Shown: positions 2,785 to 56,002 of the stretch, one piece after another
Layout: the number at the start of each line of letters is the position of its first letter
Numbering within the stretch: position 1 is the stretch's first letter
Assembly: GCA_000991245.1 (NCBI GenBank)
Contig: LBRD01000008.1
Coordinates: 1,686-65,685 of the forward strand
Source: Parcubacteria group bacterium GW2011_GWC1_36_108
GTDB lineage: Bacteria > Patescibacteriota > Minisyncoccia > Moranbacterales > GWC2-37-73
DNA length: 64,000 nucleotides
Direction of reading: 5' to 3'
The notes under the pieces: model-generated
Told to the model about the DNA's origin: nothing
What the model saw: only the letters and a program-made list of their open reading frames with translations
The model's database searches: none
Translations under genes and position numbers: made by a program

Positions 2785-2835
2785 AACCCTTTTTGAGAAA
2801 AAAGACAATGCGTATGGGTATATATAAGAGGGCAT

Positions 2836-2892
2836 GGTAGAGACGCAAAATCTGTCAGGCATTGTAGAGACGCAAAATTTTGCGTCTCTACC
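2836..2892. repeat. REP/BIME-like element (copy 1) 3' of the RAYT gene
   Basis: ggtagagacgcaaaatctgtcaggcattgtagagacgcaaaattttgcgtctctacc. It is a 14-bp-arm palindrome (gtagagacgcaaaa/ttttgcgtctctac) preceded by a third direct copy of the arm. Confidence 0.8.
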
Positions 2893-2899
2893 GGGTTAT

Positions 2900-3502
2900 C
2901 TATATCCAAACATTTTCAATATTATTCCGGTCACGTTCCCACATTTCAGGGTTTGTTTGGATATATTCACGAATTTTATTCAATGACTCATCATTTCTGA
3001 TGACGTGATCGTAAAATCGAGGTTGCCAGGTAAAATTCAAATCGTTAATTGTTGCATATTTTTTAACACCAATTTTAAACCCACGAATAATGGATGCCAG
3101 ATTTTTTGATTGTGATCCAAATTTATTTTGTGGACACGGTAGAGACGCAAAATCTGTCAGGCATTGTAGAGACGCAAAATTTTGCGTCTCTACGCATTGT
3201 TGAATATTATTCCAATTTATTTCAATAACAACATGCACGTGATTTGGCATGACCACAAATTCAGATGCGTTCGCATGTGGAAAATGTTGTGGGATTTCTT
3301 GCAAACAATTTTCTGCGATTTTTCCAATCTCATTCAAAATCATTTTTCCATCGATAATTTCTCCAAAAAATTCTTCGCGGTTTTTTGTGCAGATCGTGAC
3401 GAAATACATTCCGTTTTGCGCGTAATCATAATTTTGCAAACGGGATGATTGGATGCGGTATTTGTTTTTGAATTTTTCCGGCATGGGTTTTTTGTCGGGC
3501 AC
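2900..3502 (-). CDS. rayT: IS200/IS605-family Y1 (HUH) transposase of the REP-associated RAYT type, carrying an in-frame REP insertion
   Basis: HUH motif MPNHVHVVIEI and a C-terminal catalytic-Tyr region WQPRFYDHVIRNDESLNKIREYIQTNP. The gene is flanked by REP palindromes. A 57-nt REP copy sits inside the ORF between the HUH and Tyr motifs and translates as VETQNFASLQCLTDFASLP. Confidence 0.8.
   Translation of the reverse strand: MPDKKPMPEKFKNKYRIQSSRLQNYDYAQNGMYFVTICTKNREEFFGEIIDGKMILNEIGKIAENCLQEIPQHFPHANASEFVVMPNHVHVVIEINWNNIQQCVETQNFASLQCLTDFASLPCPQNKFGSQSKNLASIIRGFKIGVKKYATINDLNFTWQPRFYDHVIRNDESLNKIREYIQTNPEMWERDRNNIENVWI
3138..3193. repeat. REP element (copy 2), a near-identical duplicate of copy 1, embedded in frame inside the RAYT coding sequence
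   Basis: ggtagagacgcaaaatctgtcaggcattgtagagacgcaaaattttgcgtctctacg is identical to 2836-2892 apart from the terminal base. Confidence 0.8.
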
Positions 3503-3532
3503 GGTAGAGACGCGATTAATCGCGTCTCTACG
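3503..3532. repeat. REP palindrome variant (gattaat spacer) between the RAYT start and the stop of the giant gene
   Basis: ggtagagacgcgattaatcgcgtctctac is a perfect 11-bp-arm hairpin. The same 28-mer recurs at 20378-20405. Confidence 0.8.
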
Positions 3533-3540
3533 GGTTTGGT

Positions 3541-6500
3541 TTATTTTCTAATTGTTGTTGTGCCGGTTTCTCTGACTTCAACTTGTCCGAAATGATAAAG
3601 TTGCCCAATTTCATTGGCGGAAAGGGCGCGGTTGTAGATGCGGACATCGTCGATTTTACCATTAAATGTTCGATCTCCTGCAACATTATTTCCAATTGTC
3701 ATTGCTGTAGAACCTGAGCCAACTACCCCAGTCTTGGCTGCGCTAGCAACAGAAACTCCATCCAGATAAATTGAAACATTCGCTCCATCATACACGCAAT
3801 CAACATGATGCCAGCTATTGTATTTTCCAGAAAGCGGACTAGTTGTGCTTCCAACAGCTGTCACGCCAATATCACATTCAAGATTATTACCAACAAACAA
3901 AAAATTATATGAGCTGCCATTTCCTTTTTCAATAATACGACCAAAGCTAGTTCCTATTCCACTTGTTCTTGGATTTATCCAAGCGCTCAAAGTAAGTTGC
4001 GACATACCATCCAAATTATCTTTATCTGGAACTGTTACTACATTAGTCGCCACGCTAAAATCTGTTCCCTGTCCCAACTTCCCAATCGCTTTGGTTGCAC
4101 CGGAAATTGTGCCGTTATTATTATTTCCAGAAGTGTCTTTGGCAGTTGTGCCGGAAATATCTTTGCCGTCAAAGGTCCAATGCCCGACGAGACCAGCGTC
4201 AAGATTAGGCGATGAAATTTGAGATTGCTGCACAACTTCAGAAAATTCATCAGCGCCGATGTCCCAATCTCCAGCGCGACCTTGCCCGTCAATATCCTCG
4301 CCAAAATGCAAATACGAATCAGCTTGTAAATTTAAACCTGTTTTTCTAGCTACAGTATCAGAAACTGAAAGATGGAAATCCTTATTGGCAGCATCAACAA
4401 AAGCTACTGTGGTTGAATTTTTTGAGTTAGCGCCAGGAGCATCAGCAGCGAGGTCGGAGATGTTGTAATCAGACCCAGCTAAAAATGTACCCTTATACCC
4501 ATCCGTTGAACCTTGCACAATATTATTTTTTGCCACAATAGAGGATCCGGCTAAATCATAAATTCCAGCATTTGTTCCCCCATAAACAGTGTTATTGTAA
4601 GCATACAATGTTTTACCTGCACCATCATAATATCGACAAATTCCTGCACTTCCTCCATAAACAATATTATTATAAACATAAGCAGACTTGGGAGTCGTAC
4701 TTTGCCCATCAATTCTAATACCATAACTTGCCCCATAAGAAGATTTGATAATTGAATTTGAAATTTTTACAGCATTAGGCCCGCTTGAAACATACACGCC
4801 ATCATTACCTATATTAAATTGCAAGCCATCAGCCACAAGATACGATGAATTCAACTGGAAAGAACCGTTCACATCTATTCTAAATTTAGTATCGTCCCAT
4901 TTTCCCTGATGTCTTTGGTTTGTATTTGATTCTGTTGTTGTGCTGACTGGGGTATAAATCTTGATATAATTCGCAGGACTTGTTGTATATGCTGATATTA
5001 TTAAATTTGTATTATTCACACTACCATCGTTATAACAAGGTAGGTTTAATTGATAATTTCCTGTTACTAAATTTGAAGTGTTTAGATAATTCACGCCAGC
5101 CGCATAATTAATGCCATTTCCAATGGCGTAATTAATTAAATTGAAGGTGTGTGCAATTGAATTAACAGTTTGCCCAGTGACATTGGTGGGAGTTGCGCCT
5201 GTTGCGGTGATGAGTTTCCACTGCGATGTCGAAATTTTTTCTGAAATATACGCAACTGATGTTGTGTTGTATGTAACTTTATCACCCACTCCCATGTTCG
5301 TCGCAGTCTGCGCCTCGGAAAAAGTCGCAATGCCCGATGCGATAGTCACCGTTGGTGTGCCGGTTTTATGATCGGTAGTATTTTGCCCGACGGAATAATA
5401 AATTGCGGTTGCGGCTTCATCAGCGCCGATATCCCATATTGTACTTGAAGACGATGGGCGTGTTTGTCCATCGATATCATTGGTGAATGCAAGATTAATA
5501 TCCGCTGATAAGTCAGCGCCGGAATTTTTCGCAGCAGTGTCACTAGTGCTTAAGTGGAAATCTTTATTGGCAGGATCAGCAAAAGCGACGGTGGTGGAAT
5601 TTTTAGAATTGGCACCAGGTGCATCGGCGACAAGATCGGAAATATTATAGTTTGAAGATGGGTGAAAATTAGAACTAGTAAAACCATCGATACAATTTTG
5701 AGCAATATTATTCTTTAAAATAGTGTCCATGTACCCATTAGTATAATATCCGACAATTGCATCTTTGACCGTATTATTGTAAACAACAGCACGCAAAACA
5801 TCGCCACCTGCATTTCCACCAATACCTTTTTTAAAGCCGTAAATGATATTATTCCAAACTTTCAAATTAAAATTTCCGGCAGTCAAATTATATTGGATTC
5901 CAAATATATTTGTTCCACCGCTTCCAGCATACTGAAGTATATTGTTTGAAACATAAGAATTTTTATCCATGTCAATTCCAATTTGATCATAGCCAGATGT
6001 AGATGAGTTTTTTATTTGCAAACCATCAACATGTACGAATTGGTTGTTGATGTTAACATTATATGCACCCACACTTGAAACATTTAGGTTGTATTTTCCA
6101 TCATCCCATTTCCCCTGATGTCTTTGGCTTGCATTTGCTTCGGTTGTCGTGCTTATTGGAGTATAAATTCTGATATAGTTTGCTGGCGCAGTAGTATATC
6201 CTGAAACTGTCACTGCGGTAGTATCCGCAGCACTGTCGTAATAACAAGGAAAATTGAGCTGATAATTTCCAGTGACCAAACCGGTGGTATTCAAATGATT
6301 TACATCAACTGCACCTGTAACTGCAGCTGAAAGAGAAGTGTACTCGTGTTTTATTGAAACCACTGTTGAAGTCGTGATGTCTGCAGGAACTGCACCAGTT
6401 TTTGTAACTAAATTCCAAACTGAAGTGGAGGTTTTTGATGCAATATATGCAATGTCAGTTGTGTTATATGTCACCCTATCCCCAACTCCAATATTTCCAG

Positions 6501-9500
6501 TCTGAGCTGCTGAAAAAGTTGCAACTCCACTTGTAATTGTAATAGTTGGTGTGCCAATTTTAAGGTCAGCAACTGATTGCCCGACAGAATAATAGATTGG
6601 GGCTGCAGCTTCGTCGGCACCAATATCCCATATTGTGCTTGAAGATGATGGACGGGTTTGATTGTCGATGTCAGTCGTGAACAAATATGACGAATCTGAT
6701 GACAAATCTACACCAAAATTGCGTGCAGCAGTGTCGGTAGGAGAAAGATGAAAGTCTTTATTAGCAGCATCTGCAAAAGCGACGGTAGTGGAATTTTTGG
6801 AATTAGCTCCTGGAGCATCAGCAGCGAGATCTGAAATATTATAATCAGAAGTAACATTAAATGTTCCCAAAAAACCATCGCCACAATTTTGAGTAATGTT
6901 GTTTTTTAATACAGCTTGACCAATAGTAGAATGTCGAAATCCAACACTTGCTATCAAACGCAATGTATTATTGTATGCATATGAATTAACACCAGACCAA
7001 CTGTCCAGATTCATACCATTATTAACGTTATTGATTATATTATTAGAAATATATGCTCCTCCTGCAGTTGAGCCATTTGCTGAAATACCTGTGCCATTGT
7101 TAGATGGGAACTCGTCATGGATATAATTACTATCAATGGTAATATATTTTATTCCTGGAAAATACAAAGCGGATGAGGCAAACCCTGGATTTCCAAAATC
7201 AGTAATCTCCAAACCGACAAGTTTTACATATGGAATATTTAAAGCAATCGCATTTCCATTGGTTGAAGGATTAATAAGATAATTAACTCCCGTCGCTTTC
7301 CCTTGATGCCTTTGACTCACATTAACTTCAGTAGTTGTGTTATTTGGGGTATATATTTTTATATAATTTGCAGGACCAGTCGTATATCCATCAACCGTCA
7401 CTACTGTTGTGTCTGCGCCAGAATCATAATAGCAAGGGAAATTAAGTTGATAATTTCCCGCTACCAAATCTGCAGTATTTAAGTGAGTAGCATCAACAGC
7501 ACCAGCTTCTGCAGCGGAAAGTGAGGCGTAGGCGTGAGCGATTGAAGTTACATCTGCATCAGTGACAGCGGTCGGAGCAGCGCCTATTGCGCTTTGACAA
7601 CCCCAGACTGTGGTTGAGGTTTTGTTTGTAATATAGCAAGCTCCACCAGTGTATGTTACCAAATCTCCAACGCCCATATTTGTTGCAGTTTGCGCGACTG
7701 AGAAAGTTGCAGTTCTGGCGGTTGCATCAACTGTAACAGTGCCCGCTCCAGTTTCATGTGAGGTTGTGTTTTGTCCGACGGAATAGAAAATTGCGGTTGC
7801 GGCTTCGTCAGCTCCAATATCCCAAGCATTTATAGTTACATTTCGAGTTTGACCATCTATGTCAGTGTTGAAGGTAAAATTAGAATCCGCTGATAAGTCG
7901 CTACCAGAGTTCTTCGCTGATGTGTCACTAGGACTTAAGTGAAAATCTTTATTAACAGCGTCGGCGAAGGTAACGGTTTGATTTATTTTTGCATTAGCGC
8001 CTAGTGCTGATGCATCTTTAGAAAGATTTTTATTTGAAAGACTTGAATAATTAATCGCTGCGCTTCCGTTTGTACAATAATCATATGAACCATTATTATA
8101 TGACAAATTATTAATAGCAACAATGTCATAATAAGATGACTCGCTAATGCCACAATTACTATTGCCATACAAAGTATTATTATAAACAAATGCGCTATTA
8201 TCAAAATAATTACCAATACCTATACCTTTAGACCAACCATACACAATATTATTGTAAATATAAACTTGCGAACTCGATAAAACATTATTTTCTACTATTA
8301 TGCCACTTTCACTACTAGCACCACCAGTATATTTAATAATATTATTTGAAATATCGACCCCTTTATTAGTACCTCCTACAGAAATACCATCAAACCAAGA
8401 ATTATTACCTGTTTGATCAAGTTGTAATCCAGAAATGTATACGTAATTTATATTTGCCAATATTAAATCCATGCTACCACTACGCAAAACATATCTCCCA
8501 TCATCCCATTTCCCTGAATGTCTTTGCGAATTATTCGCTTCAGTTGTAGTGTTGTTTGGTGTATAAATTTTAATATTATTTGATGGCGAAGTTATGTACC
8601 CAGAAACAGTTACCGTAGTTGTATCCGCACCAGAATCATAATAACAAGGAAAATTAAGCTGATAATTTCCAGCAACCAAATCTGTAGTATTTAAATGGGT
8701 GGCATCAACAGCGCCAGCTTCGGCAGCTGAAAGTGAAGAGTACGCGTGTGTGATTGAAACTACAGTTGAATCGGTTATATTAGCAGGAATTCCTCCTGTA
8801 GCGGTTACTAAATTCCAAACAGAAGTAGAAGTTTTTGAGGAGATATATGCAACATCGGTTGTGTTATATGTGACTTTGTCGCCCACTCCCATATTTGTGG
8901 CAGTTTGAGCCACAGAAAAAGTTGCAACTCCAGATGCAATAGTCACGGTTGGCGAACCAGTTTTATGATCATTTGTGTTTTGTCCGACAGAATAATAGAT
9001 TGCAGTGGCAGCCTGATCCGCACCAATGTCGTAGAGACGTCCATTTATGGCGTCTCGCCCCTGTCCATCTATATCAGTCGTGACCGGAAGATTAGCATCC
9101 GCACTCAAATCCGCGCCAGCATTTTTGGCAGCAGTGTCATTTGGAGAAAGGTGGAAGTCTTTATTGGCAGCGTCGGCGAAGGACACAATCGTCTCAATTT
9201 GATCTTGCGCACCGCCTGTATTTGAAGAATCATCAGAAATATTATAGTTAGAAGCAGAATCAAAACTACTAGCGTACGCACTACCTCCTGTGTTTTGCAC
9301 AATGCAATTTTTAATAAGCGGACTATATCCTTCAGTATATATTCCATTTTCAGAGCCGCCAGAACCATAAACGGTATTATTATAAAATACGTTTTGGACA
9401 CTTCCTCCGAATCTTAATGCAACAACCCTGCTTGCTGAGGAACCGTAAAAAATAGAATTCTTTACGCTAGAACCATCTGTACCATATAACTGAATAGCGT

Positions 9501-12495
9501 ATCCAGTTCCCGTGTTTTTAGAAATACAAGAATCAAACTCAACATAATCATAATCAGGACCAAAAACAATAGTAGTCCAAGCAGTACTTGACGATGTAAC
9601 TTGCAACCCCATTATTTTTGTATAACTTTGCTGTATCGTAAGCGTGTTCAAAGATCCGCCAGAAAGAGCATATCTGTCGTCATCCCACTTCCCGTTATGC
9701 CTTTGTGAAAAATTGGCTTCGTTAGTCGTGTTGTTCGGTGTATAAATCTTAATAAAATTGCTTGCACCAGTGGTATATCCCGTAACTGTCACGGCTGTCG
9801 TGTCTGCAGCAGAATCATAATAACAAGGGAAATTTAATTGATAATTTCCAGTGACTAAATCCGTTGTGTTTAGATGATTAGCATCAACTGCACCTGTGAC
9901 TGCAGCGGAAAGAGAGGTGTACTCGTGTTTTATTGAAACGACGGTTTGGGCGGCGGCTCGATCAGTTGGAACGCCACCACGAGGATTGATAAGGTTCCAA
10001 ACACTGGTTGATGTTTTAGATGAAATGTAGGCAATATTTCCAACAAATTTTGCTGCACCACCAGCTTCTGCGACATACGTTTTTGTAATATCAAGATTTG
10101 TAGCATCAGAAACGTTAGTGATTTGATAAATTCCATTATAATTTGTCGTGCCAGAAATGGTGATGTAATCATATTGAGAAAAACCATGAGCGGCACTGGT
10201 TGTTAGTCTTGTTGTTCCACCACCCTGATCTGCAAAAGTCGTGATATCAATTTGACCATAAGTCACCCGATCGCCAACTCCAATATTCCCAGTCTGCGCT
10301 GCTGAAAAAGTTGCAGCTCCACTTGCAATTGTGACAGTTGGAGTGCCGGTTTTTAAATCAGAAGCAGATTGCCCGACAGAATAAAAAATCCCTGGTGGAT
10401 TTGAAAAACTCCAACCAGTGTTGCCGGAAACATTAGCAGAATTTGCACCCGCATACCAAGCCGCACCACCGGTGGCAGCGATATCTTGCAGTGACAAATA
10501 GTTACCAGCCACAATTCCGTTTGTTTTTTTGAGAGTTGCTGAAGTGCCAGGAGTTGAAGAATTTATTGTAATGAGATTGCCTGAAGTTCCAGTAGCAGTG
10601 AAAAGACCGTTGATTGTTTGGGTTGTGCCGGAAGTAAATTTAACTGTCTTTGGCGCATTAATAGTAAGATTATTGAAAGTGTTGGAACCAGCAATAGTTG
10701 TCGCGCAGTCGCCAGTATTTAAAGTTACATTATTATAAACCAAGCCACCAAATTCAACAGTTTGCGTGGCGCTAGTAAAGTCTTCTATTTTCAATGTTGA
10801 TGTTTCGGCGTTTAAATTTAAATTTGTTATTGTTTGCAAGTTCCAAGGACTTGATGATTGATATGCATTTCCCATTGTCCATATGCCACTTCCCATTAAG
10901 ATTGATCTTGTATTAGAATTGCTTGATGAAAAATTGTTACATGAAACATTAAAATTATTAGCATCGAATGTTCCATTATTCAAAATCAGTGTCCTGCCAT
11001 TTCCTGCCGAAGAATCAAAGTTATCCTGCAATGTTAATATTCCGCCAATCATTGAAATATTAACATTAGCAACACCTGTCATAAAAACTTTTCCAGCACT
11101 TGTCAGTGAATATGATCCCCTGCCTTCGAAGGTTAAGTGCTGCGATTGACCAAATGTCATACCAGAAATCAATGTCAACGAACCATACAATGTATTGGGA
11201 GTTGACGTTAACGAAAAAGTCGGCGAATTTGTCGCTCCCGTCCAAGAAATACTTTTGCCCAAGCGCGGCATATCTGCCACTACTGTTTTACCAGTCGCTG
11301 CAAAAGAATTTGCATCAAAAACCACATCGTCTTGAGGTAGCGGCACGCGACCTGCTCCACCCCCGCCATTGGTAGCCAAAAACCAATTGCCGATTGTTGA
11401 CCAATTGTCCGAAGCACTAGCTCCGTGTTTCCAATATTGCGGTGCACCAGTGGTAAACGTAATTCCAGAATTTCCCCCAGCATCTCCGCTTCCGCCAGAA
11501 ATTGCGGACAAATCCCAACTTCCAGCACCAGCACCAATAATATCACGAAAATCTGCATTGATAACAGAAACATTAGCAGCTGTGATTGTGCGAGCACTGC
11601 CGAGAGTATTTGAGGTAACAAAAAGTCTATTGATTGCAGAATTACCTGCGAAAGTTATCATGTTTGATACAGTAATGTTTCCGGGTAATGACAATGAATT
11701 AGTTTTTGCTGTTGCCGTAGCCCAAGTAAAATTATGACAAGATATATTACCACCATAAAGCAAAAAAGCTGGATCGGTAAATTCTAGATCATAATAAGTT
11801 TGAGAAGATGTAGCAAGAAATTTACTAGTGCTTGTACTTTTAATGAGAGACGTTCCAGCATCCAAAGTACCAATAAACCCCCAAGTATAATCGCCAACAC
11901 TTGTCCTTGATAAAGTTAGCGTGCTGCTGCCAAGATTTATAGAACCAGATGCACCAGTAATTGTATCACTGACTGATATATTATAATTATTCGTATTAAA
12001 TGTTGCGACAGAATATGAGGAATTAACTTGTATTTTATATAGTGAAACATCAGCACCCAGTGTTGTTGTTCCTCCTGCCACATCAAGTGTCAACCCTGCC
12101 ATATCTTGTCCTGCAAAATCTGGCACAACAACTCCCCTTGTTCGCAAGCTTCCATACCCACCAACTACTGTCGTCATACCGCTTACAAGTTTAAAGATAT
12201 TTCCAGCTAAATCTATGCGCGAACTATTATTCCAAGTCAGTGTTCCAACATAATTAGTCATATCAAATGTGTTGCCTAAACACGCAGAATAATCACAGGT
12301 TAAATTTCCGCTTGTTGCCGTTGCTACAATATCATCAACAAGAGTCGGCACCGCGCCCTCCACCCAAGTTCCAGCCGCACTCCAATTTCCCCCAGCATCA
12401 GAAATTGTGCGGGTGGCAGCTTGAGCTTGGGACGTGAAAAAAACCGCGGAGAGCAGAAAGGTTAATACAAAAATTGTAGGCTTGAGAAAATTCAT
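3541..12495 (-). CDS. Giant secreted surface protein (2984 aa) built from repeated beta-sandwich plus parallel beta-helix modules, with a C-terminal LamG/ConA-like lectin domain
   Basis: N-terminal signal peptide MNFLKPTIFVLTFLLSAVFFTSQAQA|AT. About 7 tandem ~400-aa modules each contain (A)TAIYYSVGQ…HLNTTDLVAGNYQLNFPCYYDSG…IKIYTPNNTT…SQRHQGKWDD, then NNxIxxN beta-helix rungs, then a KDFHLSPSDTSAKNSGSDLSAD…TDIDGQTR linker. The C-terminus carries the LamG signatures LVGHWTFDG…DDVRIYNRALSANEIGQLY. Confidence 0.85.
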   Translation of the reverse strand: MNFLKPTIFVLTFLLSAVFFTSQAQAATRTISDAGGNWSAAGTWVEGAVPTLVDDIVATATSGNLTCDYSACLGNTFDMTNYVGTLTWNNSSRIDLAGNIFKLVSGMTTVVGGYGSLRTRGVVVPDFAGQDMAGLTLDVAGGTTTLGADVSLYKIQVNSSYSVATFNTNNYNISVSDTITGASGSINLGSSTLTLSRTSVGDYTWGFIGTLDAGTSLIKSTSTSKFLATSSQTYYDLEFTDPAFLLYGGNISCHNFTWATATAKTNSLSLPGNITVSNMITFAGNSAINRLFVTSNTLGSARTITAANVSVINADFRDIIGAGAGSWDLSAISGGSGDAGGNSGITFTTGAPQYWKHGASASDNWSTIGNWFLATNGGGGAGRVPLPQDDVVFDANSFAATGKTVVADMPRLGKSISWTGATNSPTFSLTSTPNTLYGSLTLISGMTFGQSQHLTFEGRGSYSLTSAGKVFMTGVANVNISMIGGILTLQDNFDSSAGNGRTLILNNGTFDANNFNVSCNNFSSSNSNTRSILMGSGIWTMGNAYQSSSPWNLQTITNLNLNAETSTLKIEDFTSATQTVEFGGLVYNNVTLNTGDCATTIAGSNTFNNLTINAPKTVKFTSGTTQTINGLFTATGTSGNLITINSSTPGTSATLKKTNGIVAGNYLSLQDIAATGGAAWYAGANSANVSGNTGWSFSNPPGIFYSVGQSASDLKTGTPTVTIASGAATFSAAQTGNIGVGDRVTYGQIDITTFADQGGGTTRLTTSAAHGFSQYDYITISGTTNYNGIYQITNVSDATNLDITKTYVAEAGGAAKFVGNIAYISSKTSTSVWNLINPRGGVPTDRAAAQTVVSIKHEYTSLSAAVTGAVDANHLNTTDLVTGNYQLNFPCYYDSAADTTAVTVTGYTTGASNFIKIYTPNNTTNEANFSQRHNGKWDDDRYALSGGSLNTLTIQQSYTKIMGLQVTSSSTAWTTIVFGPDYDYVEFDSCISKNTGTGYAIQLYGTDGSSVKNSIFYGSSASRVVALRFGGSVQNVFYNNTVYGSGGSENGIYTEGYSPLIKNCIVQNTGGSAYASSFDSASNYNISDDSSNTGGAQDQIETIVSFADAANKDFHLSPNDTAAKNAGADLSADANLPVTTDIDGQGRDAINGRLYDIGADQAATAIYYSVGQNTNDHKTGSPTVTIASGVATFSVAQTATNMGVGDKVTYNTTDVAYISSKTSTSVWNLVTATGGIPANITDSTVVSITHAYSSLSAAEAGAVDATHLNTTDLVAGNYQLNFPCYYDSGADTTTVTVSGYITSPSNNIKIYTPNNTTTEANNSQRHSGKWDDGRYVLRSGSMDLILANINYVYISGLQLDQTGNNSWFDGISVGGTNKGVDISNNIIKYTGGASSESGIIVENNVLSSSQVYIYNNIVYGWSKGIGIGNYFDNSAFVYNNTLYGNSNCGISESSYYDIVAINNLSYNNGSYDYCTNGSAAINYSSLSNKNLSKDASALGANAKINQTVTFADAVNKDFHLSPSDTSAKNSGSDLSADSNFTFNTDIDGQTRNVTINAWDIGADEAATAIFYSVGQNTTSHETGAGTVTVDATARTATFSVAQTATNMGVGDLVTYTGGACYITNKTSTTVWGCQSAIGAAPTAVTDADVTSIAHAYASLSAAEAGAVDATHLNTADLVAGNYQLNFPCYYDSGADTTVVTVDGYTTGPANYIKIYTPNNTTTEVNVSQRHQGKATGVNYLINPSTNGNAIALNIPYVKLVGLEITDFGNPGFASSALYFPGIKYITIDSNYIHDEFPSNNGTGISANGSTAGGAYISNNIINNVNNGMNLDSWSGVNSYAYNNTLRLIASVGFRHSTIGQAVLKNNITQNCGDGFLGTFNVTSDYNISDLAADAPGANSKNSTTVAFADAANKDFHLSPTDTAARNFGVDLSSDSSYLFTTDIDNQTRPSSSSTIWDIGADEAAAPIYYSVGQSVADLKIGTPTITITSGVATFSAAQTGNIGVGDRVTYNTTDIAYIASKTSTSVWNLVTKTGAVPADITTSTVVSIKHEYTSLSAAVTGAVDVNHLNTTGLVTGNYQLNFPCYYDSAADTTAVTVSGYTTAPANYIRIYTPISTTTEANASQRHQGKWDDGKYNLNVSSVGAYNVNINNQFVHVDGLQIKNSSTSGYDQIGIDMDKNSYVSNNILQYAGSGGTNIFGIQYNLTAGNFNLKVWNNIIYGFKKGIGGNAGGDVLRAVVYNNTVKDAIVGYYTNGYMDTILKNNIAQNCIDGFTSSNFHPSSNYNISDLVADAPGANSKNSTTVAFADPANKDFHLSTSDTAAKNSGADLSADINLAFTNDIDGQTRPSSSSTIWDIGADEAATAIYYSVGQNTTDHKTGTPTVTIASGIATFSEAQTATNMGVGDKVTYNTTSVAYISEKISTSQWKLITATGATPTNVTGQTVNSIAHTFNLINYAIGNGINYAAGVNYLNTSNLVTGNYQLNLPCYNDGSVNNTNLIISAYTTSPANYIKIYTPVSTTTESNTNQRHQGKWDDTKFRIDVNGSFQLNSSYLVADGLQFNIGNDGVYVSSGPNAVKISNSIIKSSYGASYGIRIDGQSTTPKSAYVYNNIVYGGSAGICRYYDGAGKTLYAYNNTVYGGTNAGIYDLAGSSIVAKNNIVQGSTDGYKGTFLAGSDYNISDLAADAPGANSKNSTTVAFVDAANKDFHLSVSDTVARKTGLNLQADSYLHFGEDIDGQGRAGDWDIGADEFSEVVQQSQISSPNLDAGLVGHWTFDGKDISGTTAKDTSGNNNNGTISGATKAIGKLGQGTDFSVATNVVTVPDKDNLDGMSQLTLSAWINPRTSGIGTSFGRIIEKGNGSSYNFLFVGNNLECDIGVTAVGSTTSPLSGKYNSWHHVDCVYDGANVSIYLDGVSVASAAKTGVVGSGSTAMTIGNNVAGDRTFNGKIDDVRIYNRALSANEIGQLYHFGQVEVRETGTTTIRK

Positions 12496-17300: not shown

Positions 17301-20300
17301 GCAAAGGAATAATTATCATAAATTCCATAAGAAGCTTGCCCATATATTAATGAATTTATGATATTTATCACTGAGGTATTATGATAACTTATTTGAATAC
17401 CAGTATTGCTTCCAGTTGTAACTGGTCCACCACGTATAATGCAATCTTTTATTGTTGTAACTCCACTTCCAGCATTTAGAGAATAGCTAGAGGAACCTCC
17501 ATTTCCTCCTGGAGCATATGCATATGTTTGAATGCCCTCAATTTTATTAAACTGAGTCCCTATACTCATTATTACGCCATAATCAGGAAGTTTTAACTTG
17601 TATTTCCCATCGTCCCATTTCCCCTGATGCCTTTGCGAATTATTCGCTTCAGTGGAAGCATTATTTGGTGTATAAATTTTAATAAAATTATTTGCCCCGG
17701 TAGTGTAGCCAGAAACAACAACTGCAGTCGTGTCTGCAGCGCTATCATAATAGCAAGGGAAATTAAGTTGATAATTTCCTGTCACTAAATCCGTAGTATT
17801 CAAATGATTAGCATCAATTGCTCCAGTGACTGCAGCAGAAAGAGAAGTGTATTCATGTTTAATTGAAACGACGGTTGAAGTTGTGATGTCAGCAGGAACT
17901 GCTCCAGTTTTTGTCACAAGATTCCAAACTGAAGTTGATGTTTTTCAGCAACTGATTGCCCGACAGAATAATAGATTGCGGTTGCTGCTTCGTCGGCGCC
18001 GATATCCCATATTGTGCTTGAAGATGATGGACGGGTTTGATTGTCGATGTCAGTGTTGAATGCAAAATTAGCATCCGCTGATAAGTCGCTACCAGAATTC
18101 TTCGCTGATGTGTCGCTAGGACTCAAGTGGAAATCCTTATTGGCTACGTCGACAAAAGATACTGTCTGATTTATCTTTGAATTGACTGGGTTGGTCAAAT
18201 TATTGGCAGTTGCGTCAGAAGAAATATTATTAACGGAACTTTTTCCATCATTCAGGTAAGCTGATACAACATTATAATCAATTACATTTCCAAATGCGAT
18301 ATTATTACCAAAACCAGCCAAAGATTTATACATATTTGTACCACCAAAATACGCTCCAGTCCCACACCCATACATTGTATTATTATAATAAACATTATTA
18401 CTATAATTACCCTGTTGATCAATGCTTAATCCAGCCACATCAAAATTATAAATAATATTATTAAAAGATTTAAAATTATATCCAAAACGAACAGCTATAC
18501 CACTGTGACCAGTAGTACTTGATTCTCGTTTTAAAATGGAATTTTTAAGTGTTACATAATCAGCATAAGAATTACCAAAAGCATTGGTTGATAACGTGCC
18601 AGCCACAGAAATTTGTAACCCTTCAATTACAGTGTAGTCCTGGTCATTATTGATATATAAAGCATTTGTGCCAGTTGCAGGCACGAGTTTGTATTTCCCA
18701 TCATCCCATTTTCCAGAATGCCTTTGACTCTGATTTACTTCGGTTAAAATATTATTCGGCGTATAAATTTTTATAAAATTACTTGCCCCAGTTGTGTATC
18801 CAGAAACTGTAACCGCAGTTGTATCCGCGCCAGAATCATAGTAGCAAGGGAAATTCAATTGATAATTTCCAGCCACCAAATCCGTTGTATTCAAATGGGT
18901 AGCATCAACTGCGCCAGCTTCGGCAGCTGAAAGTGAAGAGTAGGCGTGGGCGATTGAAGTTACATCGGCATTTGTGACTGCAGTAGGGGCTCCGCCAGTG
19001 GCGGATTGACAACCCCAGACTGTGGTTGAAGTTTTTGATAAAATATAGCAAGCTCCGCCAGTGTAAGTTATCAAATCGCCCACTCCCATATTTGTTGCAG
19101 TTTGCGCGACTGAGAAAGTTGCGGTTCTAGCAATGGCATCTACCGTAACAGTGCCGCTGCCTGTTTCATGAGAATTGGTATTTTGTCCGACACTGTAATA
19201 GATGGCTGTTGCCGCTTCGTCAGCGCCAATATCCCATATTACACTTGAAGACGATGGACGCGTTTGCCCGTCGATGTCAGTATTAAATGCAAAATTAGAA
19301 TCCGCTGATAAGTCGCTACCGGAATTCTTCGCTGATGTGTCGCTAGGGCTTAAGTGAAAATCTTTATTGGCAGCGTCGGCGAAGGCGACAGTGGTGGAAT
19401 TTTTGGAATTCGCACCAGGTGCATCGGCGGCGAGATCGGAAATGTTATAATCTGACCCAGTAAAATTACCAGAGTACACATGAAATCCATCAATATTATT
19501 TTGCGAAATAGAATTTTTTACAACGAAAGTACCGTAATTAGCCCAATAACCGTTGGTTGTATTATATATAGTATTATTATTTGCATACAATATACCGCCA
19601 ATACTATTATTAAATCTCAATCCTATACCACTTGAAGCGTCATATAATATATTATTATAAACCTTATTAATTCCGGAGGAAGCTATATTAACAAGCGTCG
19701 CATTATTACCTACAGTACTCTTTACAATTGAATTGCCAAGTTCCAAATTATTCCCAGCTGCACCAAAAAATATAGCGCCATCTCCGCCAGTTATAAGTGT
19801 TTTTTGTATCTGCAATCCTTGAATTTTTGAATACGGGATATTTACATACAATGCATTAGCCGCATTTGCAACCAATCTATACTTCCCATCATCCCACTTT
19901 CCCTGATGTCTTTGGCTTACATTGGTTTCAGTAGTCGTGCTTGTTGGAGTATATATTTTGATATAATTTGAAACACCTGTCGTATATCCAGAAACTGTCA
20001 CCGCCGTTGTATCCGCTGCACTGTCATAATAACAAGGGAAATTGAGCTGATAATTTCCTGTTACTAAATCTGTAGTGTTGAGATGATTGGCGTCAACCGC
20101 ACCAGTAACTGCAGCAGACAAACTTGTGTATTCATGTTTAATTGAAACGACGGTTGAAGTTGTGATGTCAGCAGGAACTGCTCCAGTTTTTGTCACAAGA
20201 TTCCAAACTGAAGTTGATGTTTTTCCACTTGCAATTGTGACAGTCGGCGTGCCAGTTTTTAAATCAGCAGCAGATTGCCCAATTGAATAGTAGATTGCAG

Positions 20301-20493
20301 TGGCTGCGTGTGCCTGTGAGGAAAACGCGAAAAAACCGATAGCGAAAAATGCCGCCGCCAAGAAAAATCGAACACCCGTAGAGACGCGATTAATCGCGTC
20401 TCTACCATGCGCGTCTCTATCACGATTTTTTGAAAAATATTTTGTTATTTTTACCAATCGCTCATGAGCGAAAGGTTTTGATTTTAGATTCAT
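14324..20493 (-). pseudogene. Giant surface-protein paralog split into two overlapping ORFs (896-aa N-terminal part 17914-20604 and 1197-aa C-terminal part 14324-17917) by a frameshifting intragenic deletion; either a pseudogene or an assembly collapse in repeats
   Basis: The N-terminal ORF has a signal peptide (…GVRFFLAAAFFAIGFFAFSSQAHA|ATAIYYS) and the same module types as 3541-12495. It stops at …AIYYSVGQSVAEKHQLQFGIL*. The next ORF restarts 4 nt earlier, mid-module (MTKTGAVPADITTSTVV…), and carries three C-terminal LamG-like domains. At the junction about 140 nt of an otherwise conserved module are missing. Confidence 0.6.
20378..20424. repeat. REP palindrome (identical 28-mer to 3505-3532) plus a partial extra arm, lying in frame in the 5' region of the giant paralog
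   Basis: gtagagacgcgattaatcgcgtctctac-catgcgcgtctctatcacg, translated in the ORF as …NRDRDAHGRDAINRVSTG…. Confidence 0.75.
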
Positions 20494-20551
20494 TTTTTCA
20501 TGCTTAAGTTTCTTAAGACACTTAAGGTTCTTACTAAGATTCTTATGTTTC

Positions 20552-21115
20552 TTAATATCCCCTGTATTCCCGTCTTTTTCTGTGCAACTCCTCTGAAAGA
20601 CCACCTTCTTTTTGATGCTTCAATTTCAACGCCTCAACTTGGCGATGGAGAAGCAATGTTGCTTGATGGCAAAGCGTCAGCAGAAAATTTGCAGCTTCTT
20701 CACTTTGCTCTGGTAGTTCAATTGTTTTCAGGAGCTCTTCGGTTTCATACTCCTTGTTTAAGACGCTTAAGTTACTTAGGTTTCTTACGAGTGTCGCGCT
20801 TCGCGCTCGCAGTGCGAGTACTCGCGAGTCATTTTTGTCCCATTTAGAAAGTTTTCTCTGACGCAAAAAATCTTCCAGATCACCAGTCAATTCTTCCAAG
20901 GACCCCTTGGCGATGCCCGTGAGGTTGATGGCCACTTTTAGAGAAACATCCATGTCATCCGAGCCTTCCACGATGTTTTGTTTTCCACTTCTGGCTGCAC
21001 CATCCATTTGCTCTTTCAGTTTCCAACTTTTTATCCATTTTTCAGCAAACTCAACCTCTCGGTCATAGATGATGACCGAAAACCAATAGGTATAAAGTTT
21101 TTTGTATGGTTGCAT
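20552..21115 (-). CDS. Four-helix-bundle protein paralog (Avd-like/TIGR02436 core plus C-terminal extension)
   Basis: QMDGAARSGKQNIVEG…GIAKGSLEELTGDLEDFLRQRKL, and a C-terminus matching the 13656-14219 product. Confidence 0.6.
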   Translation of the reverse strand: MQPYKKLYTYWFSVIIYDREVEFAEKWIKSWKLKEQMDGAARSGKQNIVEGSDDMDVSLKVAINLTGIAKGSLEELTGDLEDFLRQRKLSKWDKNDSRVLALRARSATLVRNLSNLSVLNKEYETEELLKTIELPEQSEEAANFLLTLCHQATLLLHRQVEALKLKHQKEGGLSEELHRKRREYRGY

Positions 21116-33105: not shown

Positions 33106-33179
33106 AGCGGGATGGAGCAGTCTGGCAGCTCGCGTGGCTCATAACCACGAGGTCGTAGGTTCAAATCCTACTCCCGCAA
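33106..33179 (+). tRNA. tRNA-Met (anticodon CAT), initiator-like
   Basis: Cloverleaf with anticodon loop CTCATAA. It closely matches the E. coli tRNA-fMet body, with a 1:72 mismatch and an A11:U24 pair. Confidence 0.8.
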
Positions 33180-33265
33180 CAAGAGTTAACTGACAACTTA
33201 TAACTCACAACCTATAACAAAAACTCACAGTTGTTTGTGGTTAGTTGTAAGTTGTTTGTTTGATT

Positions 33266-33339
33266 GGCAGGGTAGCTCAGCTGGTTAGAGCACAGCCTTC
33301 ATAAGGCTGGGGTCGCGGGTCCGAGTCCCGCCCCTGCTA
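33266..33339 (+). tRNA. tRNA with CAT anticodon (elongator Met, or Ile2/lysidine type)
   Basis: Acceptor ggcaggg/ccctgct, anticodon arm cagcc-ttcataa-ggctg, T-arm gcggg-tccgagt-cccgc. Confidence 0.8.
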
Positions 33340-33366
33340 CAGGTTTTAAAAAATGAAAATATTTCT

Positions 33367-33450
33367 GGGGTCGTAGCTCAGCTGGTTAGAGCGATTGCCT
33401 GTCACGCAATAGGTCGTGGGTTCGAGTCCCATCGGCCCCGCAGAAATTTA
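33367..33450 (+). tRNA. tRNA-Asp (anticodon GTC)
   Basis: Acceptor ggggtcg/cggcccc, anticodon arm attgc-ctgtcac-gcaat, T-arm gtggg-ttcgagt-cccat. Confidence 0.8.
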
Positions 33451-54590: not shown

Positions 54591-54627
54591 AGAATACCCT
54601 TCGAATCCTTCCTCTTTTTCAAATACA

Positions 54628-54660
54628 TAAAATAGAGTCCCCCAAAAGGGACTCTATTTT
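54628..54660. terminator. Bidirectional intrinsic terminator (perfect 10-bp stem atagagtccc/gggactctat) downstream of tRNA-Ser
   Basis: aaaatagagtcccccaaaagggactctatttt. Confidence 0.6.
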
Positions 54661-54667
54661 ATGTATG

Positions 54668-54754
54668 CGGAGAAGGAGGGATTCGAACCCTCGAGGGGTT
54701 TTACCCCCTGCCTCGTTAGCAGTGAGGTGCTTTCGGCCTCTCAGCCACCTCTCC
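54668..54754 (-). tRNA. tRNA-Ser (anticodon GCT), long variable arm
   Basis: Reverse complement is GGAGAGGTGGCTGAGAGGCCGAAAGCACCTCACTGCTAACGAGG…GGGTTCGAATCCCTCCTTCTCCG. Confidence 0.75.
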
Positions 54755-54771
54755 TAAAATATTCAATTGTG

Positions 54772-54856
54772 AGGAAGCGAAGAGATTCGAACTCTTGATG
54801 GGTCGCCCCATGACAGTTTTCAAGACTGTTGCCTTCAACCGCTCGGCCACGCTTCC
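54772..54856 (-). tRNA. tRNA-Ser (anticodon TGA), long variable arm
   Basis: Reverse complement is GGAAGCGTGGCCGAGCGGTTGAAGGCAACAGTCTTGAAAACTGT…GAGTTCGAATCTCTTCGCTTCC. Confidence 0.75.
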
Positions 54857-55929: not shown

Positions 55930-56002
55930 GTGCTTGTAGCTCAGTGGATAGAGCGTCTGGTTGCGGTCCAGAAGGTCGCAGGTCCGATTCCTGCCTAGCA
56001 CA
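55930..56002 (+). tRNA. tRNA-Arg (anticodon read as GCG)
   Basis: GTGCTTGTAGCTCAGTGGATAGAGCGTCTGGTTGCGGTCCAGAAGGTCGCAGGTCCGATTCCTGCCTAGCACA. D-, anticodon- and T-stems pair canonically; anticodon loop TTGCGGT. Confidence 0.7.

What the first reader, a model, noticed from the sequence alone, without database searches (positions are those of the whole stretch)
2836..3535. RAYT (REP-associated tyrosine transposase) whose own coding sequence carries an in-frame REP copy
The HUH (HVHVV) and catalytic-Tyr (RFYDHVIRND…YIQ) motifs are intact. Between them sits a 57-nt REP (ggtagagacgcaaaatctgtcaggcattgtagagacgcaaaattttgcgtctctac) that is virtually identical to the copy just 3' of the gene (2836-2892). 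It adds exactly 19 codons with no stop.

A third REP variant (gattaat spacer) sits at the 5' end. A REP inserting into its cognate RAYT while preserving the frame is unusual. It could mark recent REP mobility in this genome.
Basis: partly seen in the sequence, partly recalled or inferred. Interest (0 to 1): 0.6.

Follow-up and report, generated by a model that had tools for sequence, protein, structure and literature searches.

The report
Known-type RAYT gene carrying its REP

Summary
ORF 2900-3484/3502 (-) is an intact HUH/Tyr RAYT. It has perfect 28-nt GTAG...CTAC palindromes 19 nt upstream, 8 nt downstream and inside the coding sequence. The internal and 3' copies share an identical 56-nt composite.

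The interpretation needs correcting. The core of the "insert" (VETQNFASL) is present in about 90% of close homologues, from CPR bacteria to Bacteroidota, Chloroflexi, Planctomycetes and Cyanobacteria. It is conserved as DNA: 15 of 15 loci use identical codons, two reading frames are used, and other palindrome families sit at the same site. A few homologues lack it.

This matches TnpA_REP subclass 2.4 (Bertels RAYT group 4). Quentin et al. 2018 reported "double-foot" REPs inserted in frame between the HuH and Tyr motifs as that subclass's unique feature. AlphaFold places the segment in a disordered loop between strand beta3 and helix alphaC.

Only two things are lineage-specific: the extra 27 nt (QCLTDFASLP) and its duplicate at the 3' flank. 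Both are absent from the closest relatives. They point to a local copy or conversion event, not genome-wide REP mobility.

One result goes beyond the literature. The hairpin-reading helix alphaC, encoded just after the REP, co-varies with the internal REP class independently of the rest of the protein.

The parts
2900..3484 (-). RAYT / TnpA_REP coding sequence. It is 194 aa from ATG 3484; the ORF stays open up to GTG 3502, giving 200 aa. Stop is TAG 2900-2902.
   Evidence: ORF list. Pfam Y1_Tnp 29.5 bits. Homologues start at M-x-E/D-K-F-K-N-K-Y. AF2 pLDDT 81. Top PDB fold match 4ER8 TnpA_REP.
3233..3241 (-). HUH motif codons (H88-V89-H90 of NHVH).
   Evidence: Read directly from the sequence. 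H88 and H90 are invariant in alignment A1.
3005..3028 (-). WQPRFYDH motif (strand beta4). It is equivalent to the W94-R104 segment of E. coli TnpA_REP that binds the 5' GTAG.
   Evidence: W159 and Q160 are invariant. HMM alignment to 4ER8 residues 82-122. GTAG-binding residues are listed in the PMC6006769 supplement.
2948..2965 (-). Catalytic-tyrosine helix motif Y180-I-Q-T-N-P.
   Evidence: Y180 and N184 are invariant. The motif aligns to DYIYINP of 4ER8.
3166..3193 (.). Internal REP: perfect 28-nt double-foot palindrome GTAGAGACGCAAAATTTTGCGTCTCTAC, translated as VETQNFASL(Q).
   Evidence: The same DNA sits at the same loop in homologues from many phyla, with 15/15 identical codons.
3138..3165 (.). 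Lineage-specific extension of the internal REP. It consists of an 11-nt spacer plus a 16-nt partial copy (third arm); with one further base (3137) this makes the 27 nt that encode CLTDFASLP.
   Evidence: It is absent from the 50 closest homologues. Similar one-and-a-half arrangements occur in P0011, P0039, P0046 and P0107.
2836..2892 (.). 3' flanking REP composite, with the full palindrome at 2864-2891. It is 56/56 nt identical to 3138-3193, lies in direct orientation, and starts 8 nt after the stop codon.
   Evidence: No 3' REP is present in the closest relatives' loci L094 and L096.
3504..3531 (.). 5' flanking REP with a GATTAATC centre, 19 nt upstream of ATG 3484. This is the REP variant carried inside the paralogous RAYT P0044.
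   Evidence: paralogue locus L086.
3047..3100 (-). Helix alphaC (residues 135-152, LASIIRGFKIGVKKYATI), encoded about 38 nt downstream of the internal REP. The equivalent helix of E. coli TnpA_REP sits in the minor groove of the REP hairpin.
   Evidence: AF2 helix 135-152. Alignment to 4ER8 K82-H86. Messing 2012, PMC3479197. Co-variation with REP class.
20378..20420 (.). The only dispersed REP in the window: GATTAATC type (20378-20405) plus an extra arm at 20411-20420, in opposite orientation judged by its flanking tail. It lies in frame in the N-terminal region of ORF 17914-20604 (-).

Best explanation
The locus is a REPtron of the TnpA_REP subclass 2.4 type (Bertels RAYT group 4).

**What it is.** An HUH/Y1 single-strand-DNA endonuclease gene is flanked by its cognate 'double-foot' REP hairpins (5' GTAG...CTAC 3'). 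A further copy of the same REP is embedded in frame in the loop between strand beta3 (HUH) and helix alphaC.

**Why it is tolerated.** The loop is disordered and of freely variable length. The palindrome is stop-free in two of its three frames.

**Age.** The embedded REP is a family-wide, old feature that is kept or renewed as DNA, not as peptide.

**What is specific to this lineage.** The internal REP carries a 27-nt extension (spacer plus a third arm). The resulting 56-nt composite has been copied between the internal site and the site just past the stop codon, 302 nt away. The likely route is gene conversion or RAYT-mediated cleavage and joining between REPs.

**Shown versus inferred.** Shown: anatomy, family-wide occurrence, DNA-level conservation, loop location and lineage specificity of the extension. 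Inferred: that the enzyme is active, that it recognises these hairpins as E. coli TnpA_REP does, and how the composite was copied.
For: - **Identity.** Pfam Y1_Tnp. The only PDB sequence relative is 4ER8, which is also the best fold match. Motifs NHVH / WQ / YIQTNP and a length of 194 aa fit the subclass 2.4 signature NH[IFV]H / WQ / YIxNNP, median 194 aa.
- **Published precedent.** Double-foot REPs and in-frame REPs inside tnpA_REP between HuH and Y are described for subclass 2.4. The paper's Table S1 lists GTAGAGACGC...GCGTCTCTAC REPs for subclass 2.4.
- **Family-wide.** 44 of 62 parsed genome loci have a GTAG...CTAC palindrome (at most one stem mismatch) in this loop; 42 are perfect, stem of at least 7.
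- **DNA level, not peptide.** The VETQNFASL codons are identical in 15 of 15 loci, while conserved motifs elsewhere use synonymous codons freely. 35 internal copies are read as VET.., 9 as RDA..VST, and none in the TAG frame. Other palindrome families occupy the same site, and some match that locus's own flanking REP (L045, L053, L061, L071).
- **Loop.** pLDDT is below 50 for residues 104-117, with no secondary structure between strand 88-95 and helix 135-152.
- **True insertion.** REP-free homologues have short loops (L067, L083, L073, L081). Four representatives have the minimal 53-aa spacing.
- **Lineage-specific part.** 56/56 nt identity. The closest relatives have a single internal REP and no 3' REP. 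The composite junction is found only at this locus.
Against: - The NCBIfam REP_Tyr_transpos equivalog scores 58.5 bits, below its cutoff of 80, so the protein is not an equivalog of the curated E. coli-type family.
- The Y motif has T where the subclass consensus has N.
- Assignment to subclass 2.4 rests on motifs, length, REP type and taxonomic spread, not on the authors' own clustering.
- A purely passive 'tolerated passenger' does not easily explain two findings. Palindromes stay perfect, with invariant codons, across phyla. And 28 of 62 loci keep the internal REP with no REP within about 0.7 kb upstream or 0.4 kb downstream.
- No biochemical evidence exists for any subclass 2.4 enzyme.
Confidence: 0.85

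Rival explanations
1. The internal REP is not a passenger but a maintained functional element. Together with the adjacent alphaC helix it forms a linked 'substrate plus reader' module. This would keep a template of the cognate hairpin inside the gene, let REP class and recognition helix be inherited or exchanged together, or provide autoregulation by RAYT binding to its own gene or mRNA.
For: - Codons of the palindrome are invariant across phyla.
- 28 of 62 loci have the internal REP but no nearby flanking REP.
- alphaC identity is 0.56 for pairs with the same internal-REP class and 0.28 for pairs with different classes, at equal core identity (0.54 against 0.54). 0 of 2000 label permutations reach this difference, against 1231 of 2000 for the core, and it holds in all core-identity bins.
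- The two paralogues of this genome are 75% (N-terminal part) and 80% (C-terminal part) identical but only 21% identical in alphaC, and they carry different internal REPs.
- In E. coli TnpA_REP, alphaC sits in the hairpin minor groove with base-specific contacts (PMC3479197).
Against: - 18 of 62 loci lack an intact internal palindrome, and several homologues have none at all yet keep all catalytic motifs.
- The loop also accumulates slippage-type tandem junk.
- The association is not corrected for phylogeny and rests on about five minority classes.
- Class B (GATTAATC) shares the outer 10-bp stem with class A. L065 (GATGCATC) keeps an A-type alphaC. So there is no simple recognition code.
- There is no T-run after the hairpin that would make it a terminator.
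Confidence: 0.25
2. This is the first reader's reading: a one-off, recent insertion of a mobile 57-nt REP into this genome's RAYT, signalling ongoing REP transposition.
For: - The 56-nt composite is identical at two sites.
- The 27-nt extension and the 3' copy are absent from the closest relatives.
Against: - The first 10 of the 19 codons are the family-typical REP found in about 90% of close homologues at the same position.
- The composite occurs only at these two adjacent sites.
- There is only one REP outside the locus in 64 kb.
- In-frame REPs are the rule in this subclass.
Confidence: 0.05
3. VETQNFASL is a conserved functional peptide motif selected at the protein level, and the extragenic palindromes are fragments or by-products of the gene.
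For: Near-invariance of E105, Q107, A110, S111 and L112 in the 51-sequence alignment.
Against: - There is zero synonymous variation in 15 of 15 loci.
- The same DNA is read in another frame (RDAKFCVST / RRDAINRVST) in 9 loci.
- Unrelated palindromes sit at the same site.
- The segment is predicted disordered.
- Some members lack it.
Confidence: 0.02
4. The feature is an assembly artefact, or the gene is a decayed pseudogene inactivated by the insertion.
For: Repeats can mislead assemblers. The gene caller truncated the protein to 169 aa (P0001).
Against: - Four independent assemblies are identical over 900 nt.
- The ORF is intact with all invariant residues.
- The fold is predicted confidently outside the loop.
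Confidence: 0.02

Closest known systems
TnpA_REP subclass 2.4 REPtrons (Quentin, Siguier, Chandler & Fichant 2018, BMC Genomics 19:475, PMC6006769), equal to RAYT group 4 of Bertels et al. 2017
   Same: Motifs NH[IFV]H / WQ / YIxNNP-like. Length about 194 aa with no terminal tails. Variable insertion between beta3 and alphaC. 'Double-foot' GTAG...CTAC REPs flanking the gene. REP copies inside the gene, in frame, between HuH and Y. Low gene copy number with divergent paralogues. Wide, patchy phyletic spread. The GTAGAGACGC stem itself is listed in their Table S1.
   Different: The host is a CPR (Moranbacteria) genome. The internal REP carries an extra 27-nt third arm that is duplicated at the 3' flank. 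The 5' REP belongs to the paralogue's variant. The co-variation of alphaC with REP class and the cross-phylum codon invariance found here did not appear in the passages of that paper that I searched and read.
E. coli TnpA_REP / RAYT group 2 (PDB 4ER8; Messing et al. 2012; Ton-Hoang et al. 2012)
   Same: HUH-Y1 fold (Foldseek E 1.4e-07). The WQPRF(W/Y)(E/D)H segment that binds the 5' GTAG. A gene flanked by its REPs.
   Different: 18% identity. E. coli REPs are imperfect hairpins with a bulge and a single GTAG foot, arranged as BIMEs. There is no REP inside the gene. The beta3-alphaC link is short. There is an inhibitory C-terminal tail. The NCBIfam model for that type is not reached (58.5 against 80 bits).
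IS200/IS605 TnpA (IS608, ISDra2)
   Same: Same fold and catalytic motifs. Recognition of subterminal ssDNA hairpins.
   Different: Those are multicopy mobile insertion sequences with distinct left and right ends, and the enzyme is a dimer. Here the gene is low-copy, sits in non-conserved neighbourhoods, and has symmetric palindromes.
In-frame palindromic repeats in other protein genes (GTAG/CGTC REPs in repair genes, Di Nocera et al. 2013, PMC3733652; Rickettsia palindromic elements, from my own knowledge)
   Same: Short palindromic repeats are tolerated in frame in permissive loops of proteins. A second example may exist here at 20378.
   Different: Those insertions hit unrelated host genes sporadically. 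Here the host gene is the element's own enzyme, and the site is the same across the family.

Membership tests
Y1 HUH transposase superfamily (Pfam PF01797 Y1_Tnp) | Profile match above the gathering score; HUH motif and catalytic Tyr. | tested here: met
   29.5 bits against a cutoff of 23. H88, H90 and Y180 are invariant. Fold matches to 4ER8, ISDra2 and IS608 TnpA.
NCBIfam NF047646 REP_Tyr_transpos (equivalog) | Whole-protein score of at least 80 bits. | tested here: not met
   58.5 bits in two stretches split by the loop. The protein is a relative, not an equivalog, of that curated (E. coli-type) family.
TnpA_REP subclass 2.4 / RAYT group 4 | HuH motif NH[IFV]H and W motif WQ. | tested here: met
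   N87-H-V-H90 and W159-Q160, against Table 1 of PMC6006769.
TnpA_REP subclass 2.4 / RAYT group 4 | Y motif YIxNNP. | tested here: inconclusive
   The window has YIQTNP, 5 of 6 positions, with T instead of N at position 4. Y180 and N184 are invariant and I181 and P185 are at least 90% conserved among homologues.
TnpA_REP subclass 2.4 / RAYT group 4 | About 194 aa with no subclass-specific N- or C-terminal domains. | tested here: met
   194 aa from ATG 3484. Homologues are 176-220 aa.
TnpA_REP subclass 2.4 / RAYT group 4 | Insertion of variable length and sequence between beta3 and alphaC. | tested here: met
   AF2 gives strand 88-95, a disordered stretch, then helix 135-152. HUH-to-WQ spacing is 48-203 aa across the family.
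TnpA_REP subclass 2.4 / RAYT group 4 | Gene flanked by long 'double-foot' REPs (5' GT[AG]G ... C[TC]AC 3'). | tested here: met
   3504-3531 and 2864-2891. The same stem appears in the paper's Table S1 for subclass 2.4.
TnpA_REP subclass 2.4 / RAYT group 4 | REP inserted in the tnpA_REP gene without disrupting the frame, between HuH and Y. | tested here: met
   3138-3193 lies between the HUH codons (3233-3241) and the Tyr codons (2963-2965), with no stop.
TnpA_REP subclass 2.4 / RAYT group 4 | 8-aa insertion at the end of alphaB. | not tested
   No residue-level structural superposition on 4ER8 was made.
TnpA_REP subclass 2.4 / RAYT group 4 | Assignment by the authors' all-against-all BlastP/MCL clustering and subclass HMM. 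| not testable with these tools
   Their profiles and sequence sets are not available here.
RAYT (functional definition) | Binds and cleaves its cognate single-stranded REP in a GTAG-dependent manner. | not testable with these tools
   This needs biochemistry. Only the GTAG-binding motif WQPRFYDH is seen to be conserved.

The most novel reading that the evidence does not exclude
In this RAYT subclass the gene carries, side by side, a copy of its own substrate (the REP) and the helix that reads that substrate (alphaC). The two evolve or are exchanged as one module, independently of the catalytic core. The internal REP would then be a maintained specificity-linked element, for example a heritable template that lets a transferred RAYT seed or re-match a REP family, rather than a tolerated passenger.
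Probability: 0.25. Interest if true: 0.6.

Novelty: new member of a known kind. Interest (0 to 1): 0.3.

Why it matters
As posed, the finding re-discovers a documented peculiarity of one RAYT subclass. It adds a CPR/Moranbacteria example and a clean case of a local REP copy event between an intragenic and an extragenic site.

The wider comparison made here raises a question that is now testable. The embedded REP may be actively maintained and genetically coupled to the DNA-recognition helix, for three reasons:
- Palindrome codons are invariant across phyla.
- Two reading frames are used.
- alphaC co-varies with REP class at constant core similarity.

If that holds, it would bear on how RAYTs and REPs co-evolve and how REP families are founded after gene transfer. 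These questions remain open for domesticated HUH transposases.

Tried and rejected
- **Rfam.** A gathering-threshold scan of the whole window found only six tRNAs and no RNA family at the REPs.
- **Literature string search.** Searches for VETQNFASL, RDAKFCVST, GTAGAGACGC and similar strings returned only unrelated primer hits. The relevant paper was found through RAYT terms instead.
- **Viral contigs.** The exact 28-nt palindrome occurs in 5 IMG/VR contigs, none inside a RAYT gene. This gives no evidence for phage carriage of the system.
- **REP type against core phylogeny.** Same-class and different-class pairs have equal N+C core identity. The idea that REP class simply tracks the whole-protein clade was dropped.
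- **Frameshift origin of the alternative alphaC types.** Rejected by inspection. The types share an SL..II...K helix pattern, and the +1 translation of the window's alphaC DNA, worked out by hand, contains a stop and is unrelated.
- **Target-site duplication.** AATGC lies on both sides of the internal palindrome in the window, but this is not general. Flank logos show only C at -1 and AA at +1/+2.
- **Recurrent breakpoint after GCGTCT in tandem partial copies.** This rests on only two convincing cases (L041, L059) and is not used as evidence.
- **Homologues of the 896-aa ORF carrying the 20378 REP.** Only two hits were found, neither covering the N-terminus. In-frame insertion there remains unproven.
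Full report
**1. The observation**

The ORF 2900..3502 on the minus strand (200 aa from GTG; 194 aa from ATG 3484, which is where homologues start) encodes a protein with NHVH, WQPRFYDH and YIQTNP motifs. Perfect 28-nt palindromes GTAGAGACGC-N8-GCGTCTCTAC lie at four places:
- 3504-3531, 19 nt upstream of the ATG, with a GATTAATC centre;
- 3166-3193, inside the coding sequence;
- 2864-2891, 8 nt after the TAG stop;
- 20378-20405.

That is four matches against none expected in 100 shuffles. The internal and 3' copies belong to a longer composite: a 16-nt partial copy, an 11-nt spacer and the full palindrome. The composite is 56/56 nt identical at 2836-2891 and 3138-3193, and similarity ends abruptly on both sides. 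On the coding strand, 57 nt read VETQNFASLQCLTDFASLP without a stop. Each palindrome folds as single-stranded DNA at -12 to -13 kcal/mol (z about -7). The window comes from a Rifle groundwater CPR genome, Candidatus Moranbacteria GW2011_GWC2_37_73 or a near relative, judging by source names.

**2. What the gene is**

- Pfam Y1_Tnp is matched above threshold.
- The NCBIfam REP_Tyr_transpos model is matched only below its cutoff (58.5 against 80 bits).
- The only solved relative by sequence is E. coli TnpA_REP, 4ER8.
- An AlphaFold model (pLDDT 81) finds 4ER8 as its best fold match, followed by IS608 and ISDra2 TnpA.
- H88, H90, W159, Q160 and Y180 are invariant among 51 homologues.

**3. The insert is a family feature, conserved as DNA**

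The first alignment already showed that VETQNFASL is nearly invariant among homologues annotated from Patescibacteria, Bacteroidota, Nitrospirae and Zixibacteria. I fetched 80 genome loci spanning CPR groups, Bacteroidota, Ignavibacteria, Calditrichota, anammox Planctomycetes, Chloroflexi, Cyanobacteria, Proteobacteria, Omnitrophota and Cloacimonadota.

Of the 62 genes I could parse, 44 carry a GTAG...CTAC palindrome (at most one stem mismatch allowed) in the loop between the HUH strand and the next helix. 42 of them are perfect palindromes with a stem of at least 7. Three results show the conserved object is the DNA palindrome, not a peptide:
- In the 15 loci that encode exactly VETQNFASL, all nine codons are identical. 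The conserved motifs MPNH, FGPQS, NLASI and WQPR in the same genes use synonymous codons freely, for example Pro CCC 24, CCA 20, CCG 9, CCT 8.
- 35 internal palindromes are read as VET...SL and 9 in another frame as RDA...VST. None is read in the frame that would expose TAG.
- Other palindrome families occupy the same site, giving CRDEALPRLY, VETPRRGVST, VETLHCNVST or RRDAMHCVST. In L045, L053, L061 and L071 the internal copy equals the REP flanking that same gene.

A minority of homologues have no insert and a short loop (L067, L083, L073, L081). Others have degenerate or tandemly slipped copies. Among close homologues, 103 of 114 show a REP-derived peptide in the loop. Among 50%-identity representatives of a family with 6,732 clusters at E <= 1e-30, 68 of 106 do.

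**4. It is already described**

Quentin, Siguier, Chandler and Fichant (2018, PMC6006769) divide Y1 HUH proteins into subclasses. Their subclass 2.4 (RAYT group 4 of Bertels et al. 2017) has these properties:
- motifs NH[IFV]H, WQ and YIxNNP, with a median length of 194 aa;
- abundant in Cyanobacteria and Bacteroidetes and scattered in other phyla;
- 'double-foot' REPs with 5' GT[AG]G and 3' C[TC]AC.

[quoted passage not shown] Their Table S1 lists GTAGAGACGC...GCGTCTCTAC REPs for subclass 2.4 members such as Chloroflexus aggregans.

The window's gene meets every subclass feature I could test, apart from one position of the Y motif (T for N). My structure prediction agrees with their model. 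Residues 104-117 have pLDDT below 50, and there is no secondary structure between strand 88-95 and helix 135-152.

**5. What is specific to this genome**

The 50 closest homologues have a single palindrome and lack CLTDFASLP. The loci of two close relatives (P0002, P0005; 67-69% identity) have a 5' REP and a single internal REP but no 3' REP. The 30-nt junction of the composite was found in the JGI metagenome collection only on this organism's contig, twice, 302 nt apart.

So in this lineage the internal REP gained an 11-nt spacer plus a partial third arm, and the 56-nt unit was copied between the internal site and the 3' flank. The direction is unknown. The mechanism, gene conversion between REPs or RAYT-mediated cleavage and joining, is inferred. 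This is a local event. The 64-kb window has only one further REP (20378), and every other long hairpin in the window has an unrelated sequence; most are A/T-bracketed and look like terminators. This fits the low REP numbers reported for group 4.

The genome has a second RAYT (P0044, next to fusA) with a GATTAATC REP 93 nt upstream and the same REP inside, read as RRDAINRVST. The window gene's 5' REP and the 20378 copy are of that paralogue's type.

**6. Mechanism**

Established knowledge for E. coli TnpA_REP is as follows. The enzyme binds a single-stranded REP hairpin plus its 5' GTAG. The GTAG is held by the WQPRFWEH region. Helix alphaC lies in the hairpin's minor groove, with base-specific contacts from R78, K82 and R97. 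The enzyme cleaves at CT dinucleotides (PMC3479197).

The window protein keeps the GTAG-binding motif and an alphaC helix that aligns to 4ER8 residues 82-86. I therefore infer that it recognises the GTAG...CTAC hairpins in the same way. Tolerance of the internal REP follows from its location in a disordered loop of variable length and from the palindrome being stop-free in two frames.

Persistence of perfect palindromes across phyla requires either continual renewal from other genomic copies or selection on the hairpin. My data cannot separate the two.

**7. A result beyond the paper**

The segment encoded immediately after the internal REP, which is alphaC, co-varies with the class of the internal REP.
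- Pairs of genes with the same REP class are 56% identical in the 36 residues before WQ. Pairs with different classes are 28% identical.
- N-terminal plus C-terminal core identity is the same for both groups (0.54 against 0.54).
- No label permutation out of 2000 reaches the alphaC difference, while 1231 of 2000 reach the core difference.
- The effect holds in every core-identity bin.

The two paralogues of this genome are 75% (N-terminal part) and 80% (C-terminal part) identical but only 21% identical in alphaC. Members with RDEA(L/M)PRL-type REPs and ISPK-type alphaC sit on the same CPR backbone. The alphaC types are homologous helices rather than frameshift products.

This suggests either cassette exchange with a breakpoint at the REP, or accelerated co-evolution of the reading helix with the embedded REP. 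There are caveats. The test is not phylogenetically corrected, it rests on about five minority classes, and no simple recognition rule emerges, since class B shares the outer stem with class A.

**8. Verdict**

It is wrong in treating this as unusual or as a sign of current REP mobility. The locus is a new CPR member of a known kind, with a small lineage-specific twist.

Interest is low to moderate. The residual novelty lies in the possible functional coupling of the embedded REP and alphaC, which needs biochemistry and proper recombination analysis.

Noticed in passing
window 20378-20420, within ORF 17914-20604 (-): The only dispersed REP (GATTAATC type plus an extra arm) lies in frame, reading ...NRDRDAHGRDAINRVSTG.... 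It sits between ATG 20493 and a signal-peptide-like hydrophobic stretch of a protein of about 860 aa. Removing 48 nt (16 codons) would leave a normal-looking N-terminus. This is possibly a second in-frame REP insertion in this genome.
   Followed up: partly
L086 3001-3576 (paralogue P0044, on the same 269-kb scaffold by database record): A second RAYT lies next to fusA, with a GATTAATC REP 93 nt upstream and the same REP inside, read as RRDAINRVST. It is a mosaic relative to the window gene: 75% identity in the N-terminal part, 80% in the C-terminal part, and 21% in the alphaC segment.
   Followed up: yes
homologue loci L005-L084, and proteins P0001-P0271: The helix alphaC segment just after the internal REP co-varies with the internal REP class. 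Identity is 0.56 for same-class pairs against 0.28 for different-class pairs, at equal core identity, with 0 of 2000 permutations reaching this.
   Followed up: partly
five of the homologue loci among L005-L084: The TAG within the GTAG foot of the 3' flanking REP serves as the RAYT stop codon. The REP starts one base before the stop.
   Followed up: no
loci L024, L080, L059, L076, L084, L060: The REP-bearing loop accumulates in-frame tandem repeats of 15-18 nt built from REP arms or adjacent sequence, for example FVETQPFVETQPFVETQDFASL. This suggests hairpin-promoted slippage, or repeated enzyme action, at this site.
   Followed up: partly
window 2829-2835, 3131-3137, 3497-3503, and the reverse complement of 20406-20412: All four REPs share an asymmetric 7-nt tail G-x-R-C-A-Y-G next to one GTAG foot. 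The element is therefore longer than the palindrome and has an orientation. The three copies at the RAYT locus are direct and the 20378 copy is inverted.
   Followed up: no
window 3541-12495 (-): A 2984-aa ORF with internally repeated modules (faint Beta_helix, plus Laminin_G_3) ends 9 nt from the RAYT's 5' REP. The ORF at 17914-20604 shares its N-terminal module ATAIYYS.GQ..TGTPTVTIASG.
   Followed up: no
window 33106-33440 (+), 54668-54856 (-), 55930-56002 (+): Six tRNA genes lie in three groups. A 19-bp perfect hairpin at 54623-54666 lies beside the second group.
   Followed up: no
IMG/VR loci L089-L093: The exact 28-nt palindrome GTAGAGACGCAAAATTTTGCGTCTCTAC occurs once in each of five viral contigs, not within a RAYT gene.
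   Followed up: partly
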